Source of the DNA: Halomicrobium mukohataei DSM 12286
GTDB taxonomy: Archaea; Halobacteriota; Halobacteria; Halobacteriales; Haloarculaceae
Assembly (NCBI RefSeq): GCF_000023965.1
Contig: NC_013201.1
Coordinates: 30,001 to 62,000, forward strand
DNA length: 32,000 nucleotides
Direction of reading: 5' to 3'
In this document: in pieces, positions 1 to 17,226 of the stretch
Layout: the number at the start of each line of letters is the position of its first letter
Numbering within the stretch: position 1 is the stretch's first letter
Translations under genes and position numbers: made by a program
The notes under the pieces: model-generated
Database searches by the model: none
What the model was told of the DNA's origin: nothing
Seen by the model: the letters and a program-made list of their open reading frames with translations, nothing else

Positions 1-1857
1 ACGGCGGTGCCGATACGGGTGTTCCAGGGCGAACACGAAACCGCCACACGGAACGAGTTGCTCGCCGAGTTCGTACTGACCGACGTGCCGCCGACCTCGG
101 CCGGGACGCCGGCGATCGAGGTCACGGTGAGCATCGACGAGAACCGGTGGATCAACGTCGAGGCAGACCACGACGGCGACAGTGAAGCGATCACGATCGA
201 TCCCGCGACGGAGCGATCGCTGCGGGATGGAACGAGACGCCAGTCCGAGCAGGAACGGCCCGCACCCCGACTGGTTACCACTCGGGACGAAGACGAGGCG
301 ACGGCATCCGACGAAAGCCCGGAGACGAGCGCCGCGAGGGATCTGGAGACGCTGATCGACGAGGCCCTCGACGTACGCAACCAGCTCCATCGTGGCGTCC
401 TCTACTGTCGCCGGTCGATCGACAACGAGGTGGCGGATCTCCGCGACAACCTCGAAAAGACGACCCGAAACATCGAGTCGATCGTCGGGACGAACACGGA
501 GAGCGCGGACAAACGCGACGAGGACGGCGAGGAGGTGGGCGACCGGCTCGTCGGCGAGCTGGCGGCCGTCGAGGACTCGCTGCGGGCACTGCTCGACGAG
601 GACACGTCGACGGGGCTGGCGTTCGACGACCTCGAAGCGCTGGTCGACCGGATCGACCGCGGGCTCGAAGCGGCGGGACTCGTGCTCGTCGATCCCGACG
701 GCGGGGCCGAGACGGACCCGTACCGCCATCGAGTGGTCTCCTCAACAGAGAGCTCCGTCCCGGAGGGGCGAATCGTCTCCGTCCAGCAGATCGGATACGA
801 GCGCGACGGTGCGGTGTGCCGGGAGGCGACGGTGGTCGTCAGCGCCGGTTCTCCAGCGGAACGTGTCACAGCGGCCACGGGGCAGACCGATCCCGACCGG
901 TCGGGCGATACACTCGATCGAGCGATCAGAGACGCACGCGCCCCGGCCGTCGAGCAGTTCCCGAGCCCACCACGACGGTCGGTGAGCTACGAGGACTTCG
1001 AGATCAGCGCGACGCTGGGAACCGGCGGCCAGGCAGTCGTGTACGAGACGACCCACCCGGCGATCGAGTCGCCGGCCCGGATCGCGCTAAAAGAACCGGC
1101 TCGCGGCGAGCGGACCCTGACACACGACGCGATCAGTTCGTTTCTACAGCGGGCACAGACGTGGCGGACCGTCGACGACCGCGAGCGAGAGAGTCGCCGG
1201 TGGCGCTCCCACGAGTACATCGTCGGCGTCGTCGACGTCGGGGACACCCGACCGTGGATCGCCATGGAGTACATGGACGGCGGTGACCTCGCCGAGCGAC
1301 TCGACGGCACCGAGGGGCTGCCGGTCGAGGAGGCCGTGTGGATCGGACAGTGTCTCTGCCGCGCGCTCGAAGTCGCACACGAGTACGGGATCGCCCACCT
1401 GGACATCAAGCCGGGGAACGTCCTCTTCACCGAAACGACACCGTCACGCTGGGACCTGCCGAAGCTCGCCGACTGGGGCCTCGCGAGAAAGCTGCTGGAC
1501 CGAGCCGACTCGATGGAAGGCTTCTCCCGACACTTCGCCGCGCCCGAACAGTTCGACGCCGAGACCTTCGGCGAACCGGACGCCGTCACGGACATCTACC
1601 AGGTCGGCGCTGTGCTGTACGCGATGCTACGCGGCGAGCCACCCGTGAGCGGCGGCCGCCTCGCCGTCCGCAAGCGAATCGTCCGCGACGACGGGCCACC
1701 GCCAGCCCCGAGTGCCGATCGTGACGACGTGCCGCCCGAACTCGACGAGATCGTACGCACGGCGCTGGCGACGGCAAAACGGGATCGGTACGAATCGATC
1801 CGGTATCTGCGAGACGATCTGGAAGCCCTGTGGAAGTCGCCGGACGATACCGTCTAG
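1..1857 (+). CDS. Hsp70 substrate-binding domain / GrpE-like domain / Hanks-type Ser/Thr protein kinase fusion (5' end cut by window edge)
   Basis: The frame is open from nt 1 to TAG 1855-1857. nt 1-201 read RVFQGEHETATRNELLAEFVLTDVPPTSAGTPAIEVTVSIDENRWINVEADHDGDSEAITI, which follows the DnaK SBD-beta signature. nt 546-849 read LAAVEDSLRALL...LVLVDPDGGAETDPYRHRVV...GRIVSVQQIGYERDGAVCREATVVVS, which follows the GrpE C-terminal signature. nt 988-1830 carry kinase motifs GTGGQAVVY, IALKEP, HLDIKPGNVLF, ADWGLAR and APEQ. Confidence 0.85.
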   Translation, partial: TAVPIRVFQGEHETATRNELLAEFVLTDVPPTSAGTPAIEVTVSIDENRWINVEADHDGDSEAITIDPATERSLRDGTRRQSEQERPAPRLVTTRDEDEATASDESPETSAARDLETLIDEALDVRNQLHRGVLYCRRSIDNEVADLRDNLEKTTRNIESIVGTNTESADKRDEDGEEVGDRLVGELAAVEDSLRALLDEDTSTGLAFDDLEALVDRIDRGLEAAGLVLVDPDGGAETDPYRHRVVSSTESSVPEGRIVSVQQIGYERDGAVCREATVVVSAGSPAERVTAATGQTDPDRSGDTLDRAIRDARAPAVEQFPSPPRRSVSYEDFEISATLGTGGQAVVYETTHPAIESPARIALKEPARGERTLTHDAISSFLQRAQTWRTVDDRERESRRWRSHEYIVGVVDVGDTRPWIAMEYMDGGDLAERLDGTEGLPVEEAVWIGQCLCRALEVAHEYGIAHLDIKPGNVLFTETTPSRWDLPKLADWGLARKLLDRADSMEGFSRHFAAPEQFDAETFGEPDAVTDIYQVGAVLYAMLRGEPPVSGGRLAVRKRIVRDDGPPPAPSADRDDVPPELDEIVRTALATAKRDRYESIRYLRDDLEALWKSPDDTV

Positions 1858-4849
1858 CTTCGATCTCAGTTTGCCGTCTGAAACCAGTCCGGCGACGATT
1901 CGTCTCGTCGAGGCTTCTTGCTTCAATCCCACAAGGGTCCGTCTGAAACTCCGAGACGTGTTCCCTCTCTAGCTGTGCATCTTCCGCTTCAATCCCACAA
2001 GGGTCCGTCTGAAACCAGATCTAAAACAATGTCATACGGAAAAATCGACATCGCTTCAATCCCATAAGGGTCCGTCTAAAACGATCCGGAATATGAAGTG
2101 ACGAACGATCCGGATACGGGCTTCAATCCCACAAGGGTCCGTCTGAAACTCGACGAGATCGGCGCGAACTCGTTCGCTGATACTGCTTCAATCCCACAAG
2201 GGTCCGTCTGAAACTCGGGGACCGAGACGACGGGGCCGGGTGCTGTCTGCTTCAATCCCACAAGGGTCCGTCTGAAACCCGGAGGGGCCGCTGCGTGGGT
2301 GATCTGGAGAGAAGAGCTTCAATCCCACAAGGGTCCGTCTGAAACGTTGCGTGAGCTAGCGAAACACCGAGTCCGTGTGATGCTTCAATCCCACAAGGGT
2401 CCGTCTGAAACACGGAAATCCAGCCGATCACCCTCCGAGAGGAGAGGGCTTCAATCCCACAAGGGTCCGTCTGAAACCGGACATTCAGAAGCGCCTGACT
2501 AACCGCATGGCTGCTTCAATCCCACAAGGGTCCGTCTGAAACCGGGAAGACCACGACCGCCCGCGCCCTCCAGTTCGAGCTTCAATCCCACAACGGTCCG
2601 TCTGAAACGGCTTCTACGTCGGCAACCGGACCGAGGACGGCGATGGGCTTCAATCCCACAAGGGTCCGTCTGAAACAAGTACGCCTCGATCATCAACGGC
2701 GTCCGGGCTGTGCTTCAATCCCACAAGGGTCCGTCTGAAACGATGCTGTTGAGCTCGTAGCGATCCCACTCGGCGTGCTTCAATCCCACAAGGGTCCGTC
2801 TGAAACAGCCCTTGTGCAATGATCGGGAGTGCAATCCGACCGCTTCAATCCCACAAGGGTCCGTCTGAAACTCAGGCGAGTTGTCGGACGAACAGCTTGA
2901 AGCGTGTGCTTCAATCCCACAAGGGTCCGTCTGAAACTCGTCGAGCGGCAGGCCGCCGACCGCTACGGGCTGGCTTCAATCCCACAAGGGTCCGTCTGAA
3001 ACCGACACGGTCGAAGATGCTGGCAGCTCGCGAATCGCGCTTCAATCCCACAAGGGTCCGTCTGAAACGGATCTCGACGGCCGCGTGGCCGTGCATCTCG
3101 GGGTCGCTTCAATCCCACAAGGGTCCGTCTGAAACAACGCTTCAACGCGCTCTATTGACCGAGCGTATCGGCTTCAATCCCACAAGGGTCCGTCTGAAAC
3201 AGATCTCGCGGATAAGCTGCCCCCGCCCTCCCATGAGGCTTCAATCCCACAAGGGTCCGTCTGAAACCACTTCGAGCGGACTTTGGGCCACCCCGGAAAG
3301 TCAGGCTTCAATCCCACAAGGGTCCGTCTGAAACCGATACGTCCGGGACGCCCGTGACGACCACCACTGCGCTTCAATCCCACAAGGGTCCGTCTGAAAC
3401 GGAGGAGCGGATGGACATGAGCGACACGACGATCCGGCTTCAATCCCACAAGGGTCCGTCTGAAACGAGCATCTCTCCAATCAGCGGTCATCAACCGCGA
3501 GCTTCAATCCCACAAGGGTCCGTCTGAAACAGTATCTGTCTACGCGATACCGCACCGTCAGAGTGGCTTCAATCCCACAAGGGTCCGTCTGAAACTACGA
3601 CCTTCCCACTGAGGGTCTTGAGCTAACGATTGCTTCAATCCCACAAGGGTCCGTCTGAAACGCGACGTGCTTACCTCTGACGCCAATATTGACCTTGCTT
3701 CAATCCCACAAGGGTCCGTCTGAAACTTCATCAAGAGGCACACAAGCATGGTGCGTCCAAAGCTTCAATCCCACAAGGGTCCGTCTGAAACCTGGCCTAC
3801 CCGAGTCGGTTCCCCGCAGCACTCGCAGCTTCAATCCCACAAGGGTCCGTCTGAAACACGATCGTCACCGACACCCTCGGGGCCGGCGGCGCGCTTCAAT
3901 CCCACAAGGGTCCGTCTGAAACGAAACGACCGAGACGCAAAGCGAGTTCACACAACTCGCTTCAATCCCACAAGGGTCCGTCTGAAACTTAGATGATCAG
4001 GTAGCCTGCTACCAGTGCAGCTGCGCTTCAATCCCACAAGGGTCCGTCTGAAACGAGACCCAGCTTTGCCTTCCAGGTGATCAGCTCGTAGCTTCAATCC
4101 CACAAGGGTCCGTCTGAAACTCGAAGCGCTCGGTCGCGACGGAGACCAGCGACCAGCTGGCTTCAATCCCACAAGGGTCCGTCTGAAACTGACGACCACA
4201 CACACGAGGCCGTGCGTGTGCTTGTAGCTTCAATCCCACAAGGGTCCGTCTGAAACCCACGTCCCGGTGACACGCAGCTCGGTGAGATCGCGCTTCAATC
4301 CCACAAGGGTCCGTCTGAAACCATGGAGTCTTCAACATTTCATGGGCTGGGCTTGGCCGCTTCAATCCCACAAGGGTCCGTCTGAAACCGCAACCCGACG
4401 ATCGAGGACGGGCCGTCCCTGGAGCTTCAATCCCACAAGGGTCCGTCTGAAACGCGTCGGACTGCGTCGATAGTGTTCGTGCTCATGTTGCTTCAATCCC
4501 ACAAGGGTCCGTCTGAAACCAGACTTCTACTGGAAGGCGAAAACTGAGAAGGCAGCTTCAATCCCACAAGGGTCCGTCTGAAACTACGCTCGACGACCTC
4601 CGTCGTGCGCTCCAGAAGTCAGCTTCAATCCCACAAGGGTCCGTCTGAAACGCGCTGCGGACGTGGTGTCAGAGGGGTTACCAGTAACTGCTTCAATCCC
4701 ACAAGGGTCCGTCTGAAACACTCCGGGTACACTGGTGGCGATGCTCTACTCGCCGCTTCAATCCCACAAGGGTCCGTCTGAAACACACGTTTCTTTTTTT
4801 CAGGAGCCATCACTCACTCGCTTCAATCCCACAAGGGTCCGTCTGAAAC
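1857..4849 (-). CRISPR. CRISPR array, 45 full 30-nt repeats plus one degenerate terminal repeat; haloarchaeal type I-B-like repeat
   Basis: The plus-strand repeat is GCTTCAATCCCACAAGGGTCCGTCTGAAAC (first copy 1920-1949, last 4820-4849). All spacers look unique and are 34-39 nt long. A degenerate 28-nt copy, GCTTCGATCTCAGTTTGCCGTCTGAAAC, lies at 1857-1884. Variant repeats sit at 2053-2082 (2 changes) and 2579-2608 (1 change), so decay clusters at the left end, which is therefore the trailer. The reverse complement GTTTCAGACGGACCCTTGTGGGATTGAAGC is the transcribed orientation of Haloferax-type I-B repeats (ATTGAAGC handle), so the array is on the minus strand. Confidence 0.98.
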
Positions 4850-5032
4850 CATGGTCGATTTGACCACGTATACACTGCTACTTGCCGTTTGCACTTCATC
4901 GTTTCCGTCGACCCTCGATACCCCTCGAACCCCCCGGGGGTCGATGGAAACGCGAACTTCCTCGGTCAGTACGCAGGCGAGACACCACCGACGTGGCGAG
5001 AAGTCGGCGACAGAGGGGTCTCTTCGACCGTC
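4850..5032 (-). promoter_or_regulatory. CRISPR leader remnant, truncated by IS insertion
   Basis: This is a non-coding stretch next to the youngest, perfect repeat. An AT-rich GTATAC segment at about 4868-4875 could be a TATA element. An inverted repeat lies at 4901-4914 / 4938-4951. The region ends at the IS terminal inverted repeat at 5033. Confidence 0.5.
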
Positions 5033-6079
5033 TCGCTCTTATGTAGAACTGCGGAAAGCCCCGATAGCGAGGCAGTCAATCATTGACTCGGTGGGTTCCC
5101 CAGCTAGAGTGAGTAACCGAACGATGCCGAAGGTGTGAGCGGCCTGCTCCAAGCCCTGCTTGGACAGGCCGCGGAACTTCCGCAGCCACGGCTGGACGAG
5201 CGAAAACAGCACTCAGCCTGGTTAATATGGACGCCGTCGAGCGATACATACCGCTCTTTGTGCACGACTGTCCGATGGTCACGCTCCATCTCTCGATAGG
5301 CTTGGAGTCCATCAGTCCAGACCTCTCCCAGCGGCTGGGAGAGGTCTTCAGCCTCCTGAATGACTGGTTCAAGATCACCGCTGTAGTCGATACCACGTTG
5401 ACCGCGGATCACGCGAAGCGAGTCGCGGCACGCCGCGACGAGCGTCAGCTGATCACCGTGGCGTCCCCACCAGCGTGGTCGGCCAGTCTGGGACGAGCCG
5501 CCGCGAGAACGGCTGTTCCGCGGCGGCTCTTGGCCTTTATACCCGGGAAAGACCTCACCAGATTCGTCGGCTTGCGTCGGTCCGTCAATGGTCTGGTCGA
5601 GCAGTTCCCAAACCACGGGAAGCCGCGCTGAACCGCGGCTTCCACCTCTCGAATCGCTGTGTGAACCGTTTTGTAGGCCCGCCCGAACAACGGCGCGATC
5701 TGGTTGATGCTGAGCAACGTATCGGCATAGAGTGTAAACGCGAGAAGTACCTCGCCGCAGGTGAGATGCTTCTCGTGAAACGGAGTTTCGTAGGTGTAGA
5801 CTGGCTTGAAGTTGCAGTCTCGGCACCACACGCGGTCGAGATGGGGCCACGTTTGGATGGCAGTGTGCCCGCACCGTGGACAGGACATATTTTTTCCAGA
5901 ACTCCTTGAGTCGCTGCTCGATGCGGGCATCGAGCGGCTCCGTGTCGAACTCGACGACGCCCAGCTCGATCAGCTCTCGAAACATCCCGCCGAACGCCGG
6001 CTGAGCAGAAGATATACTCCCCAATTATGGCTGGCTCAGTGTAACTATACGGCCTTTCCGTAGCTCTACATAAGAGCGA
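5033..6079 (-). mobile_element. IS1595-family (ISH4-like) insertion sequence, decayed copy
   Basis: Perfect 15-bp terminal inverted repeats TCGCTCTTATGTAGA lie at 5033-5047 and, as reverse complement, at 6065-6079. Inside are a zinc-ribbon (CPRCGHTAIQ...WCRDCNFKP) and DDE-domain pieces (VWTDGLQAY...HINQAE). No matching flanking direct repeat is present (CGACCGTC on the left, CGCACACA on the right). Confidence 0.8.
5039..5985 (-). pseudogene. IS1595-family transposase, disrupted by about 3 frameshifts
   Basis: The coding sense jumps between all three minus frames. Segment 1 is MFRELIELGVVEFDTEPLDARIEQRLKEFWKK, ending at an A6 run near 5891-5896. Segment 2 is NMSCPRCGH...AVQRGFP, ending at a C run. 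Segment 3 is VVWELLDQTIDGPTQ...TDGLQAYREMERDHRTVVHKERYVSLDGVHINQAE, ending near 5205-5215. Segment 4 is LFSLVQPWLRKFRGLSKQGLEQAAHTFGIVRLLTLAGEPTESMIDCLAIGAFRSST, with its stop at 5039-5041. I translated the last segment by hand; it is not in the ORF track. Confidence 0.75.
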
Positions 6080-6552: not shown

Positions 6553-6570
6553 TAGTGTGGCGCCACACTA
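6553..6570. promoter_or_regulatory. Perfect 18-bp palindrome TAGTGTGGCGCCACACTA upstream of vapB (candidate operator)
   Basis: Read directly from the sequence. It ends 32 nt before the vapB ATG at 6603. Confidence 0.5.
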
Positions 6571-6602
6571 GGCTTTTCAGGGTCGGTCACTTACTCGGAG
6601 AT

Positions 6603-6854
6603 ATGAGCAGCGACAGAATCGACGCCGAAAGCAAGGTATCTGGAAATCAGGCAAACATCCCCGCCCGGATTCGACGTGAACTCGATATCGACGACGGTGA
6701 TCAGCTCCGCTGGCAGCTTGAAAGTGATGGGAGTATCCGGGTCGAAGTCATCCAACAGCAGACGGGCACGTTCACCGATTTCGACGGCTACGCTGGTGAA
6801 AATGCAACCGATGTGACCAACGATCACGACGCCTGGGGCGTCAACGTCGAGTAA
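6603..6854 (+). CDS. vapB: AbrB/SpoVT-family antitoxin (VapB-like)
   Basis: The sequence SKVSGNQANIPARIRRELDIDDGDQLRWQLESDGSIRVEV looks like a swapped-hairpin AbrB/MazE fold. The TAA stop abuts the ATG of the PIN-domain gene (TAAATG at 6852-6857). The internal ATG at 6603 is preferred over the ORF-track start at 6555. Confidence 0.8.
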   Translation: MSSDRIDAESKVSGNQANIPARIRRELDIDDGDQLRWQLESDGSIRVEVIQQQTGTFTDFDGYAGENATDVTNDHDAWGVNVE

Positions 6855-7289
6855 ATGCCCCGCGCACTCATCGATACGTCAGTCCTGTTTGCAGCCGCGT
6901 ACAAGCGAGATAATTCACACGACGGCGCACTTCCAGTGCTCCAGGGCATCGATACTGGAACGCTTCCTGAGGCAGTCGTCCTCGACTACGTTCTCGCCGA
7001 AACGCTGAACGGCCTCACGACACACGCCGGCCACGACGCAGCGGTCGATCTCCTTGATCGCATCGAAGAAAACGCCCGCTTCCACATCGACACACTCACC
7101 ATCGATGCCCTCGCGACAGGAAAGTCCCTCTTTCGCCAACACGAACCCCTCTCCTTCGTCGATGCCTGTATTGTCGCGTATATGCAAACCGAGGGTCTCG
7201 GCTACCTGTATGCGTTTGATGACGATTTTGACGCTGTCGAGGACGTCTATCGGCTCGAAACAGCGACGAATCCCTACGATCCAAACTGA
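6855..7289 (+). CDS. vapC: PIN-domain ribonuclease toxin (VapC)
   Basis: The four PIN acidic positions are readable: LIDTSV, LAET, FVDA, FDDDF. The 144-aa size and coupling to an AbrB-type antitoxin fit VapC. Confidence 0.9.
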   Translation: MPRALIDTSVLFAAAYKRDNSHDGALPVLQGIDTGTLPEAVVLDYVLAETLNGLTTHAGHDAAVDLLDRIEENARFHIDTLTIDALATGKSLFRQHEPLSFVDACIVAYMQTEGLGYLYAFDDDFDAVEDVYRLETATNPYDPN

Positions 7290-8462: not shown

Positions 8463-8819
8463 GATGGACCGACGCAAGTCGTCGAATCTGGGATGGCCTG
8501 TTCGGGCTACAAAGGCCAAGAGCCGCCGTGGAACAGCCGTTCCCGCGGCGGCTCGTCCCAGACTGGCGATCACGCTGGCGGGGACGTCACGGTGATCAGC
8601 TGACGCTCGTCGCGGCGTGCCGCGACTCGCTTCGCGTGATTCGCGGCTAACGTGGTATCGACTACAGCGGTGATCTTGAACCAGTCATTCAGGAGGCTGA
8701 AGACCTCTCCCAGCTGCTGGGAGAGGTCTGGACTGATAGACTCCAAGCCTATCGAGAAATGGACTTTGACCACCGAACAGTCGTGCATAAGGAAAGATAT
8801 GTTTCGCCCGACGGCGTCC
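8463..8819 (+). mobile_element. Internal fragment of a second IS1595-family copy, inverted relative to 5033-6079
   Basis: It is collinear at the nucleotide level with the reverse complement of about 5225-5590. It encodes DGPTQ..SGYKGQEPP.NSRSRGGSSQTG ... LTLVAACRDSLRVIRG*RGIDYSGDLEPVIQEAEDLSQLLGEVWTDRLQAYREMDFDHRTVVHKERYVSPDG. It contains an in-frame stop and a 1-nt deletion, and has no terminal repeats. Confidence 0.8.
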
Positions 8820-8935: not shown

Positions 8936-8976
8936 TCGTCGCCCGAGGCGACAGTGGCTGGGACGGGTGCAACACA

Positions 8977-9290
8977 CCCCGTGTGCGAAGTGATTCTCGG
9001 GTCGTATCCGGAACACCACCCCCCGTGTGCGAGATGAATCGCGCCGGAAGCGGGACCGACACCGTGTGCGAAGTGAAGCGCTGTTCCGTGCTGGGTTCGC
9101 GCCGGAGCCGTGTCGCCGCCGCCAGTGAGTGGTACACACCCACCCCGTGTGCGAAGTGACTTGGGCGCACTCCGTCTGCGAAATGATCGATCGCGAGGTC
9201 GGCAACACACCGTCTGCGAGATGACCACCCCGTGTGCGAGATGAAACTGTCAGCGTGAGCGAGAGACAGCGACCGGCGTGTGCGAGCCGG
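8977..9290 (+). repeat. Cluster of 8 same-orientation ORB-like repeats (CCCCGTGTGCGA[AG][AG]TGA) downstream of orc1
   Basis: Core copies lie at 8977-8993, 9021-9037, 9060-9076, 9143-9159, 9170-9186 (GTCTGCGAAATGA variant), 9208-9224 (variant) and 9228-9244. A partial copy lies at 9275-9290. Confidence 0.75.
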
Positions 9291-9318: not shown

Positions 9319-10662
9319 TCACCCCTCGAAGAAGTCCTCGATCTGAGCGTTGACGACGGACTGGATCAGTGACTCGTCCTGCTCGACCTCTTCGAGTCGG
9401 ATGTCCGAGCGCAGCGTTTCGGCGACGACCTCTGGATCGTCGACGAACGTGTACTCTTTGTGGACGCCGCTGCCGTAGCCACGGCCCCGTTTCTCCGAGG
9501 TGACGAAGTTGTAGGTCTCGGCCTCGCCCATGTACCGGAGGTAGGAGTCTCGAGACTTCTCGTCCGTGTCCAGAAGCTCCGTGAGATACTGATAGACGCG
9601 GTAGGCGACCGTACTCGGGACGGCGTTGAGGTTGCGGTTCGAGTAGACCGGGACGATCGCCGTCGCGTACAGCGAGAGCTTCTTCTGGGAGGAGAGGCCC
9701 TGCATCTGGGTCAGCGTCCGGTCGCGTTCGGCCTCTTCCTGTGCGTCGCGAACGTGCTGTTCGTGGACCGTGTCGTCGCCGGCACGGTCCGCGATCTCGC
9801 CTGCCGTCCGGAACAGGTCGATCGCTTTCCGCGCGTCGCCGTGATCCTGTGCCGCGAAGGCAGCACTGAGCGGGATGATCCCGTCTTCGAGGACTCCCTC
9901 CTGGAACGCGTCGCGTCGGCGTTCCAGGATCGCCTGCAGCTGGTTGGCGTCGTAGTCCGAAAACACCACGTCCTGAGGGTTGAACGAGCTCTCGGCACGA
10001 CCGTCGAGTTCCTCCATGAAGCGCGGATCGTTCGTGAGGGCGGCGACCGAGACGTGCTGGTCGATCCGGCCCAGCTGAGAGGCCCGGGACAGCTGATACA
10101 GGAGTTTCGAGTACGCCGGTTCGTCGTTTGGATCCCGCTGGCGACCGACGAGCAGGTCGACCTCGTCGAGGATGATGATGACCGACTCGAAGTGTTCACT
10201 CAGAATGTCGTAGAAACGGTTGAGCTTCTGGCTCGTGGAGACCCCGCTCTGTGGGACGCCGACCTCGACGCCCGCTTTCGCCGCGGCGTTTTCCACGAGC
10301 TGGTAGACGGCTCGATCGTGTGATTTGAGCGTCTGGCAGTTGATTTCGACGACGCCGAAGTCGATGTCCTGGCTGTTTGCCAGTTCGATCACCTGCTGGC
10401 AGACGGCGTTGATGATCAGGGACTTGCCGGTCCCAGACGGGCCGTAGAGTAGCATATTCGGCGGGCGGTTGCCCTGCAGCGCCGGCCGGAGATACGTGAT
10501 GATGTCTTCGAGCTGTTCGTCGCGACCGACGATGCGGTCCTCGTCGATAACGGCGTCCGGATCGAGGAGACCCTTGTCCCTGAAAACGGAGTCCTGGACG
10601 CCCTCCTGAAGTCGTCCCTTGATAGACTGGGACAGTGACTGCTGGTCGTCGCCGTCACCCAT
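9319..10662 (-). CDS. orc1: Orc1/Cdc6 replication initiator
   Basis: Walker A LLYGPSGTGKS, Walker B VIIILDEVD, an AAA+ lid and a C-terminal winged-helix region are readable. I prefer the start MGDGDDQQ at 10662, which lies 26 nt downstream of a TATA-like element. The ORF-track start is 10689. Confidence 0.95.
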   Translation of the reverse strand: MGDGDDQQSLSQSIKGRLQEGVQDSVFRDKGLLDPDAVIDEDRIVGRDEQLEDIITYLRPALQGNRPPNMLLYGPSGTGKSLIINAVCQQVIELANSQDIDFGVVEINCQTLKSHDRAVYQLVENAAAKAGVEVGVPQSGVSTSQKLNRFYDILSEHFESVIIILDEVDLLVGRQRDPNDEPAYSKLLYQLSRASQLGRIDQHVSVAALTNDPRFMEELDGRAESSFNPQDVVFSDYDANQLQAILERRRDAFQEGVLEDGIIPLSAAFAAQDHGDARKAIDLFRTAGEIADRAGDDTVHEQHVRDAQEEAERDRTLTQMQGLSSQKKLSLYATAIVPVYSNRNLNAVPSTVAYRVYQYLTELLDTDEKSRDSYLRYMGEAETYNFVTSEKRGRGYGSGVHKEYTFVDDPEVVAETLRSDIRLEEVEQDESLIQSVVNAQIEDFFEG

Positions 10663-10687
10663 GATACCGTGATATAATCCACATCGC

Positions 10688-10695
10688 AAATAAAG
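10688..10695 (-). promoter_or_regulatory. Candidate TATA box for orc1
   Basis: The minus strand reads CTTTATTT, 26-33 nt upstream of the ATG at 10662. That spacing fits a leaderless haloarchaeal transcript. Confidence 0.4.
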
Positions 10696-10865: not shown

Positions 10866-10882
10866 AGATGAGAGGACACGGA

Positions 10883-11160: not shown

Positions 11161-11239
11161 AATCGGCAAAGAAGGAGAGTCCCCTTCCAGCCGGAGTCAG
11201 TGACGGATATCGTCGCAGTGGTCGAGGAGCCGCGTTAGA

Positions 11240-11490: not shown

Positions 11491-11551
11491 CTGCTTCCTG
11501 TCTCAGCTCGCCCGCTCTCCCTAGCACCCCACCCCCACTCTCTCACCGATT

Positions 11552-11568: not shown

Positions 11569-11577
11569 TGAGGGGGT

Positions 11578-11674: not shown

Positions 11675-14500
11675 CTACAGGTCTTCACACGCCTCCTGTA
11701 GAGCGTCCCGGAGGTACAGGATGTCGTCGTACCGCTGGGCTTTCGATTTGGACAGTGCCGTCAACAGGATCTCGTCTACGCGCGGTGGGACCGCTGCGAT
11801 CTCGCTTGGCGGCGTCGGCTCACTCTCCAGGATCTGGTACATCGCCTTCGATGGATTACTGTCGAACGGTGGCTGTCCGGTGAACAGCTCGTAGAAGACC
11901 GCGCCGAGTTGATAGATGTCCGTGCTGTGATCGCTGGTCCCGTAGTCGTCGTCGAACTGCTCCGGTGCGGCGTACTGTGGCGTGAGCCCCTGTACGCTCT
12001 GGGAGTGTTCGAGCAACTGCTTCGAGAGTCCCCAGTCCGCTACTTTCGGCACGTCCCAGGCGTCTTCGACCGTCCGAAAGAGGACGTTCTCGGGCTTGAG
12101 ATCGAGGTGAGCGACGCCGTGCTTGTGTGCGTGGCGAACGGCCTTCGTGACTGCGAGCGCGGTCCAGAGCTTCTGGGCCAGACTCATCTCTCCAGCCCGT
12201 TCGCCGAGGTGTCCGCCGTCCATGAACTCCATTCCGATCCACGGGACCGGGCTCGCCCCCCAGTCGACGACGCCGACGATGTGGTCGTGTCCGTCCAGCC
12301 TGTCCCACCGCTCGGCTTCGTCGAGCAACCGCTCGATCGTCTCGCCGTGAATCGTCCCCGACATCCGTGGTCTCTTGATCGCGATCGACGTGTCTTCCGT
12401 CCCGCTCGAAACCGACGCCTCCACCACGTCGGCGTTGCCTCCCTGTCCGATCGTCCGTTCCTCTTCGATCTCGTCGAGGGCGATCTCCGCTTCTGGCGCA
12501 CCCGGAATGTCTGCCGGTCGCCGTTTGTCGACGTGGACCGACGCTGAGCTGTCGTCATCGTCGTCCTCTGACGTGTTTGCAGCTAGAATTGCCTCTACTC
12601 GCTCGACCGTCGCCGCTCCGAACCGCTTCGACTCGCCAGAGCGGAGCAGGTCTCGCAACGGCTCCGGATCGTGTCTGGCGACCTGGGCGAAACAGGACCC
12701 TGCGTAGTCCTCGATGGTGTCGTTCCCGTCTGCCAGTAGTGGGACGATCGACGGAAGGTAGTCGGCGACCCGTGACGGGTGTTCTTCGGATACGGTTGCG
12801 AACGTGGAGGCGGCGAACTTTCGTGTCGATCGCTTCGGATCGTCGAGTCGCGATTCGATCGCGTCCAGATGGTCGACCACCTGTCGGGGCTCTTCTTTGG
12901 CCACTTCCGTGAACACGTAGGTCGCAAGGTTTCGCGTGTTCTCGCTCTCGTCGTCGAGTCGCGGTTCGAGTGCGTCCAGATAGCCACTCACTCGCCGAGG
13001 GGAGACCTCGACGCCCTCGCTGAACGGAGTGGTCGCGAAGTTTCGCGTCGGTCGTTTGGGGTCGTCGAGCCGTGGTACGAGCGCGTCTAAGTAGTCGAGT
13101 GTCTGCCGGGGCTCTTCCTTGGAGACCTCTCCGAAGACGTAGGCCGCGAGGTTTCGCGTGTTCTCGCTCTCGTCGTCGAGTCGCGGTTCGAGGGCGTCTA
13201 TATGGCCACTCACTCGCTGGGGGGCAACCTCGACGGCTTCGCCGAACGCGGTGGTCGCGAAGTTCCGCGTGTTCCCACTCGCATCGTCGAGGCGGTCTTC
13301 GAGCGCGTCCAGAGAGTCGAGAACCTGGTTCGGTTTCTCGTTAGCGACTTGCTTGAAGACGTAGGTCGCGAAGTTTCTCGTTCCTTGGCTTTCGTCATCG
13401 AGGCGATCTTCGAGCGCGTCGAGATAGTCAATCGTCAGCCGTGGATCTTCCTTGGAGACTTCCTTGAAGACGTAGGTTGCGAAGTTTCTCGTTTCCTGGC
13501 TCTGATCGTCGAGGCGGTCTTCGAGCGCGTCGAGATAGTCATACGCGAGGCGTGGCTCTTTTTTGGCGACTTCCTTGAAGACGTACGCTGCGAAGTTCCT
13601 CGTCTTCTCTCCCCGGTCGTCGAGGCAGTCTTCGAGCGCGTCGAGATAGCCGCTCGTGTGGCGTGGCTTCTCCTTTGCGACTTCCTTGAAAACGTAGGCC
13701 GCGAGGTGTCTCGTGTTCTCACTCTCGTCGTCGAGTCGTGGTTCGAGCGCGTCCAGAGAACGACTCACTGGCCGGGGGGCGACTTCGACGACTTCGCTGA
13801 ACGCGGTAGTCGCGAAGTTCCGAGTGGATTGTTTGGCATCGTCGAGCCGTGGCTCGATCGCGTCCAGATAGTCGATCACCTGTCGGGGTTCTTCCCTAGA
13901 GACCTCTCCGAAGACGTAGGTCGCGAGGCTTCGCGTATTTTCGCTCTTGTCGTCGAGCCGCGGTTCGATCGCGTCCAGATGGTCGCTCACTCGACGGGGA
14001 TCGACTTCGACCACTTCGCTGAACACGGAGACCGCGAAGTTTCGTGTCGATTCCTCGGCGTCGTCGAGTCGCGGTTCGACCGCGTCGAGAGAGTCGATTA
14101 CCTGCCGGGGGTCCTCCTGGGCGACCTCTTTGAAGACGTAGGTCGCGAGATTTCGCGTATTTTCGCTCTCGTCGTTGAGGCGTGGTTCGATGGCGTCCAG
14201 ATAGTCACTCACTCGCCGGGGGTCGACTTCGACGACCTCGCTGAACGCGAACAGCGTGAAGTTTCGCGTCTTGCTGTTCGAATCCTCGAGACGCGGTTCG
14301 AGAGTGTCGAGATAGCCCCTCACTCGCCGTGCGTCCGATTTGGCGACCTGCTTGAACACGTAGGTAGCTGTCTGGCGGTTCTTGGGCTGGTTGCTGTCGA
14401 GAAACCGACCGGCCGCGTCGAGATCTACCCGGGCCGGAGCGCCATCGGCGTCACGCCGCAGACTGTCGATCTCACGAGTCGAATCCTCGTCGGTGTCCAT
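11675..14500 (-). CDS. HEAT-like repeat array fused to a C-terminal Hanks-type Ser/Thr kinase
   Basis: About 15 tandem 37-aa repeats (LDA[IL]EPRLDD.S.NTRN.A.YVF.EV..E.PR) span roughly 12690-14410. The kinase spans roughly 11690-12490, with motifs GQGGNADVV, IAIKRP, HLDLKPENVLF, ADWGLSK and APEQ. A TATA-like ATAATTT (minus strand, 14529-14535) lies about 30 nt upstream of the ATG at 14500. Confidence 0.95.
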   Translation of the reverse strand: MDTDEDSTREIDSLRRDADGAPARVDLDAAGRFLDSNQPKNRQTATYVFKQVAKSDARRVRGYLDTLEPRLEDSNSKTRNFTLFAFSEVVEVDPRRVSDYLDAIEPRLNDESENTRNLATYVFKEVAQEDPRQVIDSLDAVEPRLDDAEESTRNFAVSVFSEVVEVDPRRVSDHLDAIEPRLDDKSENTRSLATYVFGEVSREEPRQVIDYLDAIEPRLDDAKQSTRNFATTAFSEVVEVAPRPVSRSLDALEPRLDDESENTRHLAAYVFKEVAKEKPRHTSGYLDALEDCLDDRGEKTRNFAAYVFKEVAKKEPRLAYDYLDALEDRLDDQSQETRNFATYVFKEVSKEDPRLTIDYLDALEDRLDDESQGTRNFATYVFKQVANEKPNQVLDSLDALEDRLDDASGNTRNFATTAFGEAVEVAPQRVSGHIDALEPRLDDESENTRNLAAYVFGEVSKEEPRQTLDYLDALVPRLDDPKRPTRNFATTPFSEGVEVSPRRVSGYLDALEPRLDDESENTRNLATYVFTEVAKEEPRQVVDHLDAIESRLDDPKRSTRKFAASTFATVSEEHPSRVADYLPSIVPLLADGNDTIEDYAGSCFAQVARHDPEPLRDLLRSGESKRFGAATVERVEAILAANTSEDDDDDSSASVHVDKRRPADIPGAPEAEIALDEIEEERTIGQGGNADVVEASVSSGTEDTSIAIKRPRMSGTIHGETIERLLDEAERWDRLDGHDHIVGVVDWGASPVPWIGMEFMDGGHLGERAGEMSLAQKLWTALAVTKAVRHAHKHGVAHLDLKPENVLFRTVEDAWDVPKVADWGLSKQLLEHSQSVQGLTPQYAAPEQFDDDYGTSDHSTDIYQLGAVFYELFTGQPPFDSNPSKAMYQILESEPTPPSEIAAVPPRVDEILLTALSKSKAQRYDDILYLRDALQEACEDL

Positions 14501-14640: not shown

Positions 14641-17226
14641 ATGAGTGACTCACGGGAGCCGGACCCTTCGACCGTCGAGAGCCCGAGTCGGCGGTCGCTG
14701 TCGCCCGACTCGTTCGATCACGGGGCAGTGATCGGTCGAACTCCCACGACGGTCGTCCACCGGATCGGGGTCGGCGCGGACGATCAGATCGCGGTCAAAC
14801 ACCCGGCGACCCACGGGACCCTGGGCGGTGACGTGTTCGATTCGTTTCGACGGGAGGGCAAACGGTGGGCTCAACTGGCCGACCACCCCCACATCGTCGG
14901 CGTCGTCGACTGGGGCGAGAGCCCGCTGCCGTGGCTCCACCACGACGCCGACGTGCCGTGGGTCGCGATGGAGTACATGGACGGCGGGGATCTCGGGGAG
15001 TACACGGAGGAGCTCTCCATTGAGGGCAAGCTCTGGGTCGCCGAGCGACTCGCCGACGCCGTCTGGTACGCACACCACGACGGCGGCGGCCTGATCCACC
15101 ACGATCTGAAGCCCGAGAACATCCTCTTCCGCGAAACGCCGGACGAACAGTGGGACGTGCCCAAGATCGCCGACTGGGAGCTCGCCCGGACGCTCCTGAA
15201 CCACTCCGACAGCGTCGGCGTCACCACGCCACAGTACGTCGCGCCCGAACAGGCCCACAACGAGTCGACCGACCAGCTCACCGACCAGTTCCAGCTGGGA
15301 ATCGTCCTCTACGAGCTGTTTACCGGGACCTATCCGTTCGTCGACGGTCCCGAGTCGGCACCCGAAGCGGCACTGATCACGGGCATCCTGCGGAACGATC
15401 CCGTCCCGCCCAGCGAGCGTCGACCCGTGGTGCCGTCGGCGCTGGACGACGTGGTCCTGACGATGCTGGCAAAGGACCCCGACGATCGCTACGAGGCGAT
15501 GCTCCAGGTCCGGAACGACCTGCGTGCGATCGAGCCAGGCGACGACCGCTCCGAGGAACCGGAGCCGAACCCGGCCGCTCGGAGCCGTCCTGACTCCCGT
15601 TCGGTGCCGACCCAGACGGCCGACTGGAACGGTGTCGGCGTCGGCACTGGCGTGGTCCTCGACACCACTGCTCGCGGAGCGGCGGCGATCAGGACCGACC
15701 TGGCAGACGACGGGACCTTCTACCTGAGCGATCTGGACCACGATCTCGAACCCACCCAACGGGTCTCGCTCTACTACGAGGGGGACGATCCGGGAGCGAG
15801 CGACATTATCGAGGTCCAGCCCGTCGAGAGCGACGAGGAGCCGCCCGCAGTGGGCGACAGCGAGACGTTCGGCGAGGGCGTGGTGATCGACACGACCGGC
15901 GACAGCAAGGCGGCCGTCGAGACCGACCTCGCCACCGACGGCGTGTTCTACCTCAGCGGTATCGAGGCGACCCTCCAGACCGGTGACGCGGTCGCGCTTC
16001 GCTACGAGGGATCCGATCCGACGGCGAGTGACGTCTCGCAGGTGGTGCCGATCGACGAACTCGACGCGACGGCGTCCGTCGCGGCCGACGACACCGGAGA
16101 GGGCGAACCCGCGGGGGAATCCTCCCCGGCCGGAGAGGTCGAACCCGCGGAGGAAACACCAGCCACCGACAGCGCCCGGCCGATACGAGGGAGTTGGCCG
16201 CGATCCGGGAACGATCAGGGCCGCACGCACGCAACGGACCAACAGGGTCCCGACGGTTCCGTCGACGTGCTGTGGCAGGCGGAGATCGGGAGCGGTCTCG
16301 AAGCGCCGCCGGTCGTCGCCGACGGGACCGTCTACGCCGGGTGCTCGAACGGAACGACGGTCGCACTCGACGCGGGGACGGGAACGAAACGCTGGCAGTT
16401 CGAGACGAGAAACGACGTCGTCGCCGCGCCGGTCGTCGCCGGTGAGACGCTGTATGCGGTGAGCAAGGACGCCCACGTGTACGCGATCGACCGCGAAGCG
16501 GGTACCGAGCGCTGGGCCTACGACACCGGGAGCGCGATATACGCACCACCGGTGGTGGCCAACGACCGCGTCGTCGTCACCGCACGTTCGGGCGCTGTCG
16601 CGGCGATCCACACCGAGAGCGGAACCGAAATGTGGGCCGTCGAGACGACGCCCGGCATTCGCGTTCCGGTGACCCAGTACGGCCGGCGACGGCTGCTGGT
16701 CGGTGACGACAACGGCGTGGTACACGTCCTGACGAAGGGTGGCTCCGAGCAGGCGACGATCGACATCAGTGGCCGTGGGCGCATCCGAACGCCGATCGTC
16801 GCGCCGGGAAACTCCGGAACGGTGCTGGTCGGTGACACGCTGGTCGACCTACAGCGCGAGACCGTCGTCGATACGCTCGCCCGCGGGGTCCGGTCGCTGC
16901 CCGCCGTCGACGAGGGGACGGCCTACCACGTGACCGATACGGAAGTCAGGGGCATCGAGATCTACAGCGGCGAGCAGATCGTTTCCTACGGCTTCGACGG
17001 CTCGACGAGTCGTCTCGGGACAGAAACGACACCGGCGATCGCCGACGGCATCGTGTACACGGGCCTCGGTGACGGAACGGTCGTCGCGTTCGACGGCACG
17101 ACCGGGCGGGAACGCTGGCGACGAGAGCTCGGCTCGACGGTCGCCGGGTCGCCGGTTCTCCTGGACGGACACCTCTTCGCCGCGACGCGTGACGGGACCC
17201 TCTACGCGCTCGCCGGCCAGGCGTGA
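14641..17226 (+). CDS. Ser/Thr kinase-like domain / duplicated small beta-rich domain / PQQ-like beta-propeller protein
   Basis: The kinase spans about 14700-15530 (IAVKHP, HHDLKPENILF, IADWELAR, APEQ). Two tandem domains lie at 15649-16056 (GVV.DTT...A.TDLA.DG.FYLS). PQQ/BamB-like blades span about 16264-17223 (AAPVVAGETLYAVSKDAHVYAIDREAGTERW and similar). Confidence 0.95.
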   Translation: MSDSREPDPSTVESPSRRSLSPDSFDHGAVIGRTPTTVVHRIGVGADDQIAVKHPATHGTLGGDVFDSFRREGKRWAQLADHPHIVGVVDWGESPLPWLHHDADVPWVAMEYMDGGDLGEYTEELSIEGKLWVAERLADAVWYAHHDGGGLIHHDLKPENILFRETPDEQWDVPKIADWELARTLLNHSDSVGVTTPQYVAPEQAHNESTDQLTDQFQLGIVLYELFTGTYPFVDGPESAPEAALITGILRNDPVPPSERRPVVPSALDDVVLTMLAKDPDDRYEAMLQVRNDLRAIEPGDDRSEEPEPNPAARSRPDSRSVPTQTADWNGVGVGTGVVLDTTARGAAAIRTDLADDGTFYLSDLDHDLEPTQRVSLYYEGDDPGASDIIEVQPVESDEEPPAVGDSETFGEGVVIDTTGDSKAAVETDLATDGVFYLSGIEATLQTGDAVALRYEGSDPTASDVSQVVPIDELDATASVAADDTGEGEPAGESSPAGEVEPAEETPATDSARPIRGSWPRSGNDQGRTHATDQQGPDGSVDVLWQAEIGSGLEAPPVVADGTVYAGCSNGTTVALDAGTGTKRWQFETRNDVVAAPVVAGETLYAVSKDAHVYAIDREAGTERWAYDTGSAIYAPPVVANDRVVVTARSGAVAAIHTESGTEMWAVETTPGIRVPVTQYGRRRLLVGDDNGVVHVLTKGGSEQATIDISGRGRIRTPIVAPGNSGTVLVGDTLVDLQRETVVDTLARGVRSLPAVDEGTAYHVTDTEVRGIEIYSGEQIVSYGFDGSTSRLGTETTPAIADGIVYTGLGDGTVVAFDGTTGRERWRRELGSTVAGSPVLLDGHLFAATRDGTLYALAGQA

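What the first reader, a model, noticed from the sequence alone, without database searches (positions are those of the whole stretch)
1..1857. One ORF covalently links an Hsp70 substrate-binding domain, a GrpE-like exchange-factor domain and a Ser/Thr kinase
Three recognisable modules lie in one uninterrupted frame. nt 1-201 carry the DnaK SBD-beta signature. nt 546-849 carry a GrpE C-terminal signature (DP..H..V, Q.GY...G...R.A.VVVS). nt 988-1830 carry a complete kinase domain. DnaK and its nucleotide-exchange factor are normally separate proteins. I know of no described architecture that places chaperone, NEF and a Hanks kinase in one polypeptide. It suggests client- or folding-state-coupled phosphorylation, or a chaperone-gated switch of the kind proposed for NTPase-thresholded conflict systems. 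The gene is cut by the window edge, so I cannot tell whether an Hsp70 ATPase domain lies upstream.
Basis: partly seen in the sequence, partly recalled or inferred. Interest (0 to 1): 0.75.

Follow-up and report, generated by a model that had tools for sequence, protein, structure and literature searches.

The report
Archaeal Hsp70–GrpE–protein kinase fusion
The first 1.9 kb of the window really do encode one protein that joins an Hsp70 chaperone, a copy of its GrpE recycling factor and a signalling kinase. The protein belongs to a small, conserved and so far undescribed family in salt-loving archaea, and probably uses the chaperone part as the sensor that controls the kinase.

Summary
Window nt 1-1857 is an unbroken frame. 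It holds Pfam HSP70, GrpE and Pkinase hits, all above the curated cut-offs.

I recovered the source contig, a Halomicrobium mukohataei JP60 megaplasmid (WP_012807418.1, auto-named "GrpE"). The full gene encodes 1158 aa: SBDβ – Hsp70 NBD – SBDβ – lid-helix remnant plus GrpE-like helices and β-domain – Hanks-type kinase. A fold search of the modelled GrpE-like part returns only GrpE structures.

It is not an artefact:
- Three Halomicrobium replicons keep the ORF.
- Relatives at about 50% identity in other haloarchaea and hypersaline metagenomes keep all three modules.
- dN/dS is below 1 in every structured domain, lowest in the GrpE β-domain and the kinase.

The Hsp70 part is a degenerate paralogue. 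Every fused member lacks at least one of K70, E171 or D201. DnaK and GrpE equivalog thresholds are not met.

The gene often sits beside paralogous kinases fused to other modules. I found no paper describing the architecture.

My best reading is a chaperone-gated sensor kinase, with logic like BiP–IRE1/PERK. An antiviral "decoy" sensor is the main rival. Function is inferred, not shown.

The parts
1..1857 (+). C-terminal 618 codons plus stop of a 1158-aa gene (full-length residue = window residue + 540). The gene is WP_012807418.1, locus tag E5139_RS16075, on the H. mukohataei JP60 plasmid NZ_CP039376.1 at 53800-57276.
1..198 (+). Last strands of the second Hsp70 substrate-binding beta-domain (full-length aa 541-606).
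   Evidence: Pfam HSP70; phmmer SBD-beta copy 2 at full-length 519-632; strands in the model
199..318 (+). Acidic, predicted disordered linker (full-length aa 607-646).
   Evidence: pLDDT below 50 over 609-646; dN/dS 0.5-0.9
319..672 (+). Four-helix region (full-length aa 647-764). The first helix carries the LDVRNQLHRG motif, which aligns to Hsp70 lid helix B. The later helices align to the GrpE helical bundle.
673..846 (+). GrpE-type C-terminal beta-domain (full-length aa 765-822), motif TDPYRH...GY.RDG...REA.VVVS. With the kinase it is the most constrained part of the protein.
   Evidence: Pfam GrpE; alignment to stand-alone GrpEs; Foldseek GrpE-only hits; dN/dS 0.10-0.18
847..999 (+). Linker with the conserved SPPRR motif (nt 964-978) that precedes the kinase domain throughout this haloarchaeal kinase family.
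1000..1854 (+). Hanks-type Ser/Thr kinase domain. It has a G-loop GTGGQAVV, a beta3 Lys (IALK), an HLDIKPGN catalytic loop, DWG (a DFG variant) and APE.
   Evidence: dN/dS 0.05-0.19
11675..14500 (-). Paralogous kinase with N-terminal HEAT repeats (941 aa). It recurs next to the fusion gene in other genomes.
   Evidence: Pfam; neighbourhoods L004 and L005; 39% identical kinase domain
14641..17226 (+). Paralogous kinase with a C-terminal PQQ beta-propeller (861 aa). It recurs next to the fusion gene in other genomes.
   Evidence: Pfam; neighbourhoods L004, L005, L007, L011; 38% identical kinase domain

Best explanation
The gene encodes a cytoplasmic sensor Ser/Thr kinase whose input module is a self-contained, degenerate Hsp70 machine. 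Its order is SBD-beta, Hsp70 ATPase domain, interdomain linker, second SBD-beta, disordered linker, a remnant of the Hsp70 lid helix, a GrpE-like helical bundle and beta-domain, an SPPRR linker, and a Hanks-type kinase.

Proposed mechanism (inferred): the two peptide-binding beta-domains capture extended hydrophobic segments. These could belong to misfolded or specific client proteins, or to an internal pseudo-substrate. The ATPase domain works as a slow nucleotide switch rather than a fast foldase. The GrpE-like domain resets that switch in cis, dimerises the protein, or both. The resulting state gates kinase autophosphorylation or phosphorylation of the bound client. This is the chaperone-titration logic of BiP-IRE1/PERK or DnaK-sigma32 (from my own knowledge of those systems), collapsed into one polypeptide.

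What is shown: the architecture, its conservation, purifying selection, intact kinase catalytic motifs, intact SBD pocket residues, and partial loss of Hsp70 catalytic residues. What is inferred: ligand, direction of regulation, substrates and physiological role.
For: - Architecture: Pfam HSP70 529 bits, GrpE 41 bits and Pkinase 87 bits on the full protein. There are two SBD-beta copies. The GrpE fold is confirmed structurally.
- Real gene: the ORF is identical in two assemblies. It is intact in H. katesii and Halomicrobium sp. LC1Hm.
- Family: HSP70+GrpE+Pkinase occurs in P0297-P0301, P0123-P0125, P0132, P0138 and P0201. This includes Haloplanus pelagicus and Salinigranum halophilum.
- Selection: dN/dS is 0.05-0.19 for the kinase, 0.10-0.18 for the GrpE beta-domain and 0.33-0.71 for the Hsp70 parts.
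- Switch-like ATPase: D8 and D194 are kept, but every fused member lacks at least one of K70, E171 or D201. Canonical haloarchaeal DnaKs keep all of them. The J-domain contact residues Y145, N147, D148, N170 and T173 are altered in this subfamily.
- Peptide binding is plausible: the interdomain linker VVLLDV and pocket residues I401, F426, V436 and I438 are kept.
- Sensor-kinase family: the same kinase clade is fused to PQQ propellers, HEAT, HTH, S1, CSD, SepF, DnaJ_C, EF-1alpha-C, CetZ and ferredoxin. One locus carries a PP2C phosphatase. The Haloplanus orthologue sits among housekeeping genes.
Against: - There are no experimental data of any kind.
- The inter-domain arrangement is not predicted with confidence (pTM 0.40), and I had no coordinates or PAE, so cis docking of GrpE on the NBD is untested.
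- The GrpE-like part lacks the conserved Gly (E. coli G122) and the N-terminal long-helix motif, so exchange activity is uncertain.
- Relaxed constraint and recombination in the Hsp70 core, together with the mobile, defence-rich plasmid context, fit a conflict role at least as well.
- The distribution is patchy. A strict-pattern scan of 185,579 species genomes found only Halomicrobium katesii.
Confidence: 0.45

Rival explanations
1. Antiviral or conflict sensor of the 'integrated decoy' or guard type. The fused Hsp70-GrpE module mimics the host chaperone machinery that viruses recruit. Engagement by a viral protein activates the kinase, which then triggers dormancy or abortive infection. The neighbouring paralogous kinases, fused to copies of other core host proteins, would form a sensor battery.
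For: - The gene lies on a megaplasmid 63 nt from a 45-repeat CRISPR array. The island also holds IS elements, VapBC, MoxR-vWA and an IetA-like AAA ATPase.
- Paralogous kinases nearby or in related loci are fused to EF-1alpha C-terminal domains, ferredoxin, CetZ tubulin and DnaJ_C.
- Mrr-type nuclease genes lie upstream in two distant loci.
- The distribution is patchy.
- The Hsp70 core is less constrained and recombinant, while the kinase is conserved.
- The kinase domain resembles the PD-T4-6 and MAD6 models.
- A host chaperone acting as an infection sensor has a precedent in DnaJ and bNACHT25 (PMC12169576, listed; title and abstract only).
Against: - The PADLOC and NCBIfam matches cover only the generic kinase domain and are far below equivalog cut-offs (MAD6 75 vs 460).
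- No effector or partner gene is conserved across loci.
- The two Mrr proteins are not orthologous, and none is in the window.
- The Haloplanus orthologue lies among metabolic housekeeping genes.
- dN/dS is below 1 in every structured domain.
- A viral-contig scan found nothing.
Confidence: 0.27
2. Regulator of the host chaperone network. The paralogous Hsp70, GrpE (or DnaJ_C) domains act as docking modules. For example, the GrpE-like domain could heterodimerise with host GrpE or bind host DnaK. This would bring the kinase to the housekeeping DnaK-DnaJ-GrpE system or its clients, to phosphorylate them.
For: - Sister architectures carry single chaperone pieces with the same kinase: kinase-DnaJ_C (P0009), kinase-DnaJ_C-SBD (P0126), GrpE-kinase-PQQ (P0130) and Hsp70-kinase (P0013).
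- The GrpE beta-domain, which is the DnaK-contacting element, is the most conserved non-kinase part.
- A canonical DnaK coexists with the fusion in Salinigranum.
Against: Hsp70-GrpE fusions without any kinase also exist, for example Halorussus salinisoli WP_321112442.1. So the Hsp70-GrpE pairing has a rationale independent of kinase targeting. There is no interaction evidence.
Confidence: 0.18
3. An ordinary protein-folding DnaK-GrpE chaperone that happens to carry a kinase, or a non-functional fusion, pseudogene or assembly artefact.
For: The automatic annotation calls it GrpE or Hsp70 with the GO term 'protein folding'.
Against: - DnaK equivalog scores are 559.6 vs 648 and 543.7 vs 822.55. 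GrpE equivalogs reach at most 31 bits against cut-offs of 164 or more.
- Catalytic and J-domain contact residues are altered.
- The ORF is intact in three complete replicons and in many metagenomes, and dN/dS is below 1.
- The shorter Salinigranum entries are nested C-terminal versions in the same frame, not a frameshift split.
Confidence: 0.05

Closest known systems
DnaK-GrpE chaperone and nucleotide-exchange pair (e.g. PDB 1DKG, 4ANI, 8GB3)
   Same: The same two folds are present. The Hsp70 NBD, linker and SBD-beta are 47-56% identical to haloarchaeal DnaK. The GrpE helical and beta-domain fold is there. The DnaK loop that binds GrpE (NSEGDR, E. coli G32) is retained.
   Different: The two are covalently fused instead of being separate proteins. 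There is an extra SBD-beta and only a remnant of the lid. Catalytic residues E171, D201 and T199 are substituted. The GrpE part lacks the long N-terminal helix motif and the conserved Gly. Both parts score below NCBI equivalog thresholds. A kinase is attached.
BiP-IRE1/PERK (and DnaK-sigma32, Hsp70-HSF1) chaperone-titration stress sensors (from my own knowledge)
   Same: An Hsp70 is coupled to a Ser/Thr kinase or regulator, so that client load could set signalling output.
   Different: In those systems the chaperone, its exchange factor and the kinase are separate proteins and are not homologous partners of this kinase clade. Here all are in cis. The analogy is functional only and was not tested.
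Bacterial Hanks-type sensor kinases (PknB/Stk1 family)
   Same: The kinase domain is the closest solved homologue (E 3e-26) and has the same catalytic motifs. Both have a modular sensor-plus-kinase design.
   Different: There is no transmembrane segment and no PASTA domains. Here the sensor is a cytoplasmic chaperone module. It is a non-RD kinase (HLD) with DWG instead of DFG.
GAP1-N2 GTPase-centred conflict systems with HSP70 and GrpE genes (Kaur et al. 2020, PMC7159879)
   Same: A dedicated Hsp70 paralogue is paired with its own GrpE outside the housekeeping operon. Kinases appear in a separate theme of the same study.
   Different: Those components are separate genes linked to a GTPase, in actinobacteria and firmicutes. 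No GTPase flanks this gene in any locus examined.
Anti-phage kinases (PD-T4-6/Stk2-like, MADS MAD6, BREX PglW)
   Same: Kinase-domain similarity (PADLOC PD-T4-6 151 bits, mad6 134 bits).
   Different: The similarity is limited to the generic kinase domain. The partner genes of those systems are absent. NCBIfam MAD6 scores 75 vs a cut-off of 460 and PglW 42 vs 990.

Membership tests
Hsp70 superfamily (Pfam PF00012) | Profile match above the gathering score, covering the actin-like NBD, the hydrophobic interdomain linker and SBD-beta. | tested here: met
   529 bits vs 20.6 on the full protein. The linker VVLLDV and SBD-beta are present. Foldseek top hits are DnaK structures.
DnaK (housekeeping orthologue; NCBIfam NF001413 / TIGR02350) | Score at or above the equivalog cut-off. 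| tested here: not met
   559.6 vs 648 and 543.7 vs 822.55.
DnaK (housekeeping orthologue) | Full catalytic set K70, E171, D194, T199, D201 and J-domain contact residues Y145, N147, D148, N170, T173 (E. coli numbering, from my own knowledge). | tested here: not met
   E171D, T199S and D201S. Y145V, N147S, D148V, N170G and T173A. The canonical haloarchaeal DnaKs P0303 and P0399 keep the catalytic set.
DnaK (housekeeping orthologue) | Complete alpha-helical lid (SBD-alpha). | tested here: inconclusive
   Only a helix-B-like segment aligns. The Pfam HSP70 match reaches profile position 575 of 599. The downstream helices align to GrpE.
GrpE (Pfam PF01025) | Profile match above the gathering score, and the GrpE fold (helical bundle plus C-terminal beta-domain). 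| tested here: met
   43.2 bits on the fragment and 41.3 bits on the full protein, vs 25.8. The top 11 Foldseek hits are all GrpE. Residues equivalent to E. coli H154, G177-Y178, V190 and V192 are conserved.
GrpE (functional nucleotide-exchange factor; NCBIfam equivalogs) | Equivalog score, the long N-terminal dimerisation helix with its basic/aromatic motif, and the conserved Gly (E. coli G122). | tested here: not met
   The best equivalog score is 31 bits against cut-offs of 164-194. The stand-alone GrpEs in the alignment keep the Gly and the helix motif. The fused forms do not.
GrpE (functional nucleotide-exchange factor) | Accelerates ADP release from an Hsp70 NBD; forms a homodimer. | not testable with these tools
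   This needs biochemistry or a multimer model with PAE. The monomer model has pTM 0.40 for the whole protein.
Hanks-type (eukaryotic-like) Ser/Thr protein kinases (PF00069) | Profile match and catalytic motifs: G-loop, beta3 Lys, catalytic loop Asp/Asn, DFG Asp, APE. | tested here: met
   88.4 bits vs 31.7. PknB E 3e-26. GTGGQAVV, IALK, HLDIKPGN, DWG and APE are conserved in the family. The alphaC Glu could not be placed with confidence.
NTP-dependent conflict systems of Kaur et al. 2020 (GAP1-N2 GTPase + HSP70 + GrpE; MoxR-vWA ternary systems) | Core GTPase or MoxR-vWA pair in the same conserved gene neighbourhood as the Hsp70/GrpE component. | tested here: not met
   No GTPase is adjacent in six loci. 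A MoxR-like AAA plus vWA pair lies at window 17476-20307, about 15.6 kb away. It is separated by a CRISPR array, IS elements, a toxin-antitoxin pair and the replication origin, and is absent from the other loci seen.
Known anti-phage kinase systems (PD-T4-6, MADS, BREX) | Full-length model match and system partner genes. | tested here: not met
   Matches cover the kinase domain only. MAD6 scores 75 vs 460 and PglW 42 vs 990. No partner genes were found.

The most novel reading that the evidence does not exclude
This family may be a single-polypeptide chaperone-titration sensor, an archaeal one-component analogue of the unfolded-protein-response kinases. Alternatively it may be one member of a battery of haloarchaeal 'integrated-decoy' kinases. 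In that battery, copies of core host proteins (Hsp70/GrpE/DnaJ, EF-1alpha, CetZ, ferredoxin, SepF) would be wired to a kinase to detect stress or viral hijacking of those machines. Either way it would be the first Hsp70 covalently fused to its own exchange factor and to a signalling output.
Probability: 0.3. Interest if true: 0.85.

Novelty: new variant of a known kind. Interest (0 to 1): 0.62.

Why it matters
Hsp70, its exchange factor and stress kinases are normally separate proteins, and their coupling has to be inferred indirectly. A natural fusion of all three has several uses.

- It gives a compact, genetically tractable system to test how chaperone occupancy can be turned into a phosphorylation signal.
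- It shows that Hsp70-GrpE can work, or be repurposed, in cis.
- It opens the almost unstudied repertoire of haloarchaeal Hanks-type kinases, which appear to recruit copies of core cellular proteins as input modules.
- It shows that the current automatic name, "nucleotide exchange factor GrpE", is misleading for a 1158-aa multidomain kinase.

Tried and rejected
- The word-index homologue search with the fragment was swamped by kinase hits. With the N-terminal 330 aa it found almost nothing. The exhaustive HMMER search and a full-length query were needed to find the family.
The narrower alignment A4 used very strict patterns and found only H. katesii. So that scan says little about the wider family's distribution.
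- The viral-contig scan found nothing.
- The look-up of the Salinigranum protein's contig failed.
- I suspected that Salinigranum's 723-aa and 485-aa entries meant a split gene. They are nested C-terminal versions in the same frame.
- I suspected a conserved Mrr nuclease partner. The two Mrr proteins share only the nuclease domain at 28% identity, and none is in the window or in L002, L004, L007 or L009.
- PADLOC gave only generic kinase matches. The MoxR and vWA proteins gave none.
- The full-length AlphaFold model cannot settle cis docking: pTM is 0.40, and coordinates and PAE were not available to me.
- Literature searches for the accession numbers and for the architecture returned nothing relevant.
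They agree with the 1DKG alignment, and canonical haloarchaeal DnaKs served as internal controls.
Full report
**Observation.** Frame 1 of window 1-1857 is open for 618 codons and ends at a stop at 1855-1857. Pfam scoring of this fragment gives three hits above their curated cut-offs:
- HSP70 at aa 2-155 (54.0 bits, cut-off 20.6)
- GrpE at aa 140-281 (43.2 bits, cut-off 25.8)
- Pkinase at aa 334-596 (88.4 bits, cut-off 31.7)

NCBIfam and the PDB sequence search agree, giving DnaK, GrpE and PknB-type kinase.

**Source and full length.** I looked up a complete neighbouring gene, the PIN toxin at window 6855-7289. This recovered two NCBI assemblies that carry the same DNA, 100% identical to the window over the 300 bases aligned. 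The record is the circular 221,861-bp plasmid of Halomicrobium mukohataei JP60, NZ_CP039376.1. The window starts at its position 55420. The gene runs from 53800 to 57276 and encodes 1158 aa (WP_012807418.1, UniProt C7P4U6). Databases name it automatically "nucleotide exchange factor GrpE" or "Heat shock protein 70". So an Hsp70 ATPase domain does lie upstream: Pfam HSP70 scores 529 bits on the full protein.

**Anatomy.** The following layout combines Pfam, phmmer, family alignments and an AlphaFold model (pLDDT 74, pTM 0.40).

| Full-length residues | Element |
|---|---|
| 8-113 | extra SBD-beta |
| 139-~500 | Hsp70 NBD |
| after the NBD | interdomain linker VVLLDV |
| 506-606 | second SBD-beta |
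| 607-646 | acidic disordered linker |
| 647-764 | four helices |
| 765-822 | six-stranded beta-domain |
| 823-873 | linker with a conserved SPPRR motif |
| 874-1157 | kinase domain |

The first of the four helices carries LDVRNQLHRG and aligns to Hsp70 lid helix B. The later helices and the beta-domain align to stand-alone GrpEs. I modelled window aa 100-300 alone and got a confident structure (pLDDT 86.8, pTM 0.81). Its 11 best PDB matches are all GrpE (1DKG, 3A6M, 9BLS, 4ANI; E 6e-6 to 2e-3), and the next match has E 0.15. This confirms the GrpE assignment independently of sequence profiles. TM-scores are low (0.35-0.49). I read this as the monomer model folding its helices back on themselves, whereas GrpE is an extended dimer, but I could not inspect coordinates.

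**Not an artefact.** Several lines agree.
- The ORF is intact in H. mukohataei, in H. katesii DSM 19301 (83% aa identity) and in Halomicrobium sp. LC1Hm (93% nt identity).
- The exhaustive HMMER search with the non-kinase half, followed by Pfam scans and a full-length search, shows the same HSP70+GrpE+Pkinase architecture in other proteins. These are P0297, P0298, P0299, P0123, P0300, P0124, P0125 (Salinigranum halophilum), P0132, P0138 (Haloplanus pelagicus) and P0201.
- In P0301 a CetZ tubulin domain is added in front.
- The shorter Salinigranum entries are nested C-terminal versions of the same frame, not a split gene.
- Nei-Gojobori dN/dS among the three Halomicrobium genes is 0.05-0.19 for the kinase, 0.10-0.18 for the GrpE beta-domain, 0.33-0.71 for the Hsp70 parts and up to 0.9 for the disordered linker.

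**A degenerate Hsp70 and a partial GrpE.** I compared the fused proteins with E. coli DnaK and two canonical haloarchaeal DnaKs. All fused proteins that retain an ATPase domain keep D8 and D194 (P0201 lacks most of it). Each lacks at least one of K70, E171 or D201. In this protein the changes are E171D, T199S and D201S. Residues known to contact the J-domain (Y145, N147, D148, N170, T173) are also replaced in its subfamily. The substrate-pocket residues (I401, F426, V436, I438) and the GrpE-binding loop of the NBD are retained. Most members have two SBD-beta copies, but at different positions: N-terminal in this subfamily, and tandem or internal in P0125, P0138 and P0301.

The GrpE-like part keeps the beta-domain signature. 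It lacks the conserved Gly (E. coli G122) and the long-helix motif that the stand-alone GrpEs in the same alignment retain. Consistently, the protein stays below NCBI's DnaK equivalog cut-offs (559.6 vs 648; 543.7 vs 822.55). It also stays far below all GrpE equivalog cut-offs. Canonical DnaK coexists with the fusion in Salinigranum. The module is therefore a specialised paralogue, not the housekeeping chaperone.

**Kinase family and neighbourhood.** The kinase belongs to a haloarchaeal clade with a conserved SPPRR pre-domain motif. That clade is fused to very varied modules:
- PQQ propellers, HEAT, HTH, S1, CSD, SepF, NAC/UBA-like domains and DUF7115
- DnaJ_C (P0009) and Hsp70 without GrpE (P0013)
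- kinase-DnaJ_C-SBD (P0126) and GrpE-kinase-PQQ (P0130)

Hsp70-GrpE fusions without a kinase also exist, for example in Halorussus salinisoli.

The window holds three further kinase ORFs of this kind:
- HEAT-kinase at 11675-14500 (-)
- kinase-PQQ at 14641-17226 (+)
- an ORF at 26216-28261 (-) combining kinase, wHTH and a 2Fe-2S ferredoxin domain

The pairing with HEAT-kinase and PQQ-kinase genes recurs in several loci. It is seen in H. katesii. It is seen in a 53%-identical orthologue's locus, which also has a kinase-EF-1alpha-C fusion. PQQ-kinase genes also flank the CetZ-containing member, together with a PP2C phosphatase, and the P0124 subfamily. The Haloplanus orthologue, in contrast, lies among metabolic housekeeping genes. 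Upstream MarR and Thr/Ser dehydratase genes are conserved only within Halomicrobium.

**Interpretation.** I commit to a chaperone-gated sensor kinase. The Hsp70 module would be a peptide-binding, slowly cycling nucleotide switch, not a foldase. The GrpE-like domain would reset it in cis, dimerise the protein, or both. Occupancy of the SBDs would control or target the kinase. This resembles the BiP-IRE1/PERK and DnaK-sigma32 titration logic, which I cite from my own knowledge. Only the architecture, conservation, residue patterns and selection are shown. The mechanism is inference (confidence 0.45).

The main rival (0.27) is an antiviral "decoy" sensor. In its favour:
- the plasmid island context, with a CRISPR array 63 nt downstream plus IS elements, VapBC, MoxR-vWA and an IetA-like ATPase
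- the paralogous kinases fused to copies of other core host proteins
- the patchy distribution
- a recombinant, less constrained Hsp70 core: dS is 0.5-1.1 there versus 0.02-0.15 elsewhere between H. mukohataei and H. katesii

Against it:
- the defence-database matches are generic
- no partner gene is conserved
- the Haloplanus orthologue has a housekeeping context
- no viral hits were found

A third reading (0.18) is that the chaperone pieces dock the kinase onto the host DnaK system.

**Literature and novelty.** Full-text searches found no paper mentioning the protein or the architecture. Kaur et al. 2020 describe separately encoded HSP70 and GrpE genes in GAP1-N2 GTPase systems, not this fusion. 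The archaeal phosphorylation review I searched by keyword does not mention chaperone fusions. I rate the finding as a new variant of known kinds. All three domains are familiar. The covalent Hsp70-exchange factor-kinase combination, the doubled SBD-beta and the degenerate ATPase are undescribed as far as I could search.

Noticed in passing
window 1920-4849: CRISPR array of 45 repeats of 30 nt (GCTTCAATCCCACAAGGGTCCGTCTGAAAC) with a period of 64-69 nt. It starts 63 nt after the stop codon of the fusion gene. The degenerate repeats are at the low-coordinate end, so the leader is probably near 4850-5030 and transcription is on the minus strand. I saw no cas genes in the window.
   Followed up: partly
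window 5033-6079, and 5229-5586 with 8463-8819: An IS-like element about 1 kb long bounded by 35-nt terminal inverted repeats (5033-5067 and 6045-6079). Separately, a 358-nt inverted duplication (87-92% complementary) brackets the VapBC region.
   Followed up: partly
window 6555-7289: AbrB/MazE-type antitoxin (6555-6854) and PIN-domain toxin (6855-7289), a VapBC-like pair. The PIN gene was the handle used to recover the source contig.
   Followed up: partly
window 8967-9247, 10873-11163 and 11546-11577, around orc1/cdc6 at 9319-10689 (-): Nine direct copies and one inverted copy of a roughly 30-nt element with core CCCCGTGTGCGA(A/G)(A/G)TGAA flank the orc1/cdc6 gene. They look like origin-recognition boxes of the plasmid replication origin. 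A (TCAC/TCACCCACTCAC)n microsatellite lies at 11578-11650.
   Followed up: partly
window 17476-24768: A MoxR-like AAA+ ATPase (AAA_5 104 bits, AAA_3, CbbQ_C) is followed by a vWA protein (18403-20307) and a 1485-aa HEAT-repeat protein (20311-24768), which start within 1 and 4 nt of the preceding stop, in a 72-74% GC stretch. This resembles a MoxR-vWA chaperone-type system. PADLOC has no match for the ATPase or the vWA protein.
   Followed up: partly
window 26216-28261 (-): An uninterrupted 681-aa ORF combines a Pkinase domain, winged-helix domains and a C-terminal 2Fe-2S ferredoxin domain. The public gene table lists only a 144-aa 'ferredoxin Fer' at its 3' end. That table omits pseudogenes, so the status of the rest is unknown.
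   Followed up: partly
window 29162-30400 (-): A classical AAA ATPase (PF00004, 138 bits) resembles IetA of the Iet anti-phage system (PADLOC 123 bits). No protease partner was identified next to it.
   Followed up: no
L002 1527-5003 versus L004 10001-13480 (full gene, beyond the window's left edge): Divergence between H. mukohataei and H. katesii is mosaic. dS is 0.02 in the N-terminal SBD-beta and 0.09-0.15 from the helical region to the kinase, but 0.52-1.1 across NBD, SBD-beta 2 and the linker. This suggests that recombination replaced the Hsp70 core in one lineage.
   Followed up: partly
window 12840-14365 (-): A 111/222-nt tandem periodicity lies inside the HEAT-kinase gene. It reflects a run of about 12 HEAT repeats still similar at the DNA level (68-73% matches).
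   Followed up: no
locus L007 8143-12822 and locus L005 16889-19420: Two related metagenomic genes: a 1559-aa CetZ(tubulin)-Hsp70-GrpE-kinase fusion next to a PP2C phosphatase, and an 843-aa kinase fused to EF-1alpha domains 2 and 3.
   Followed up: partly
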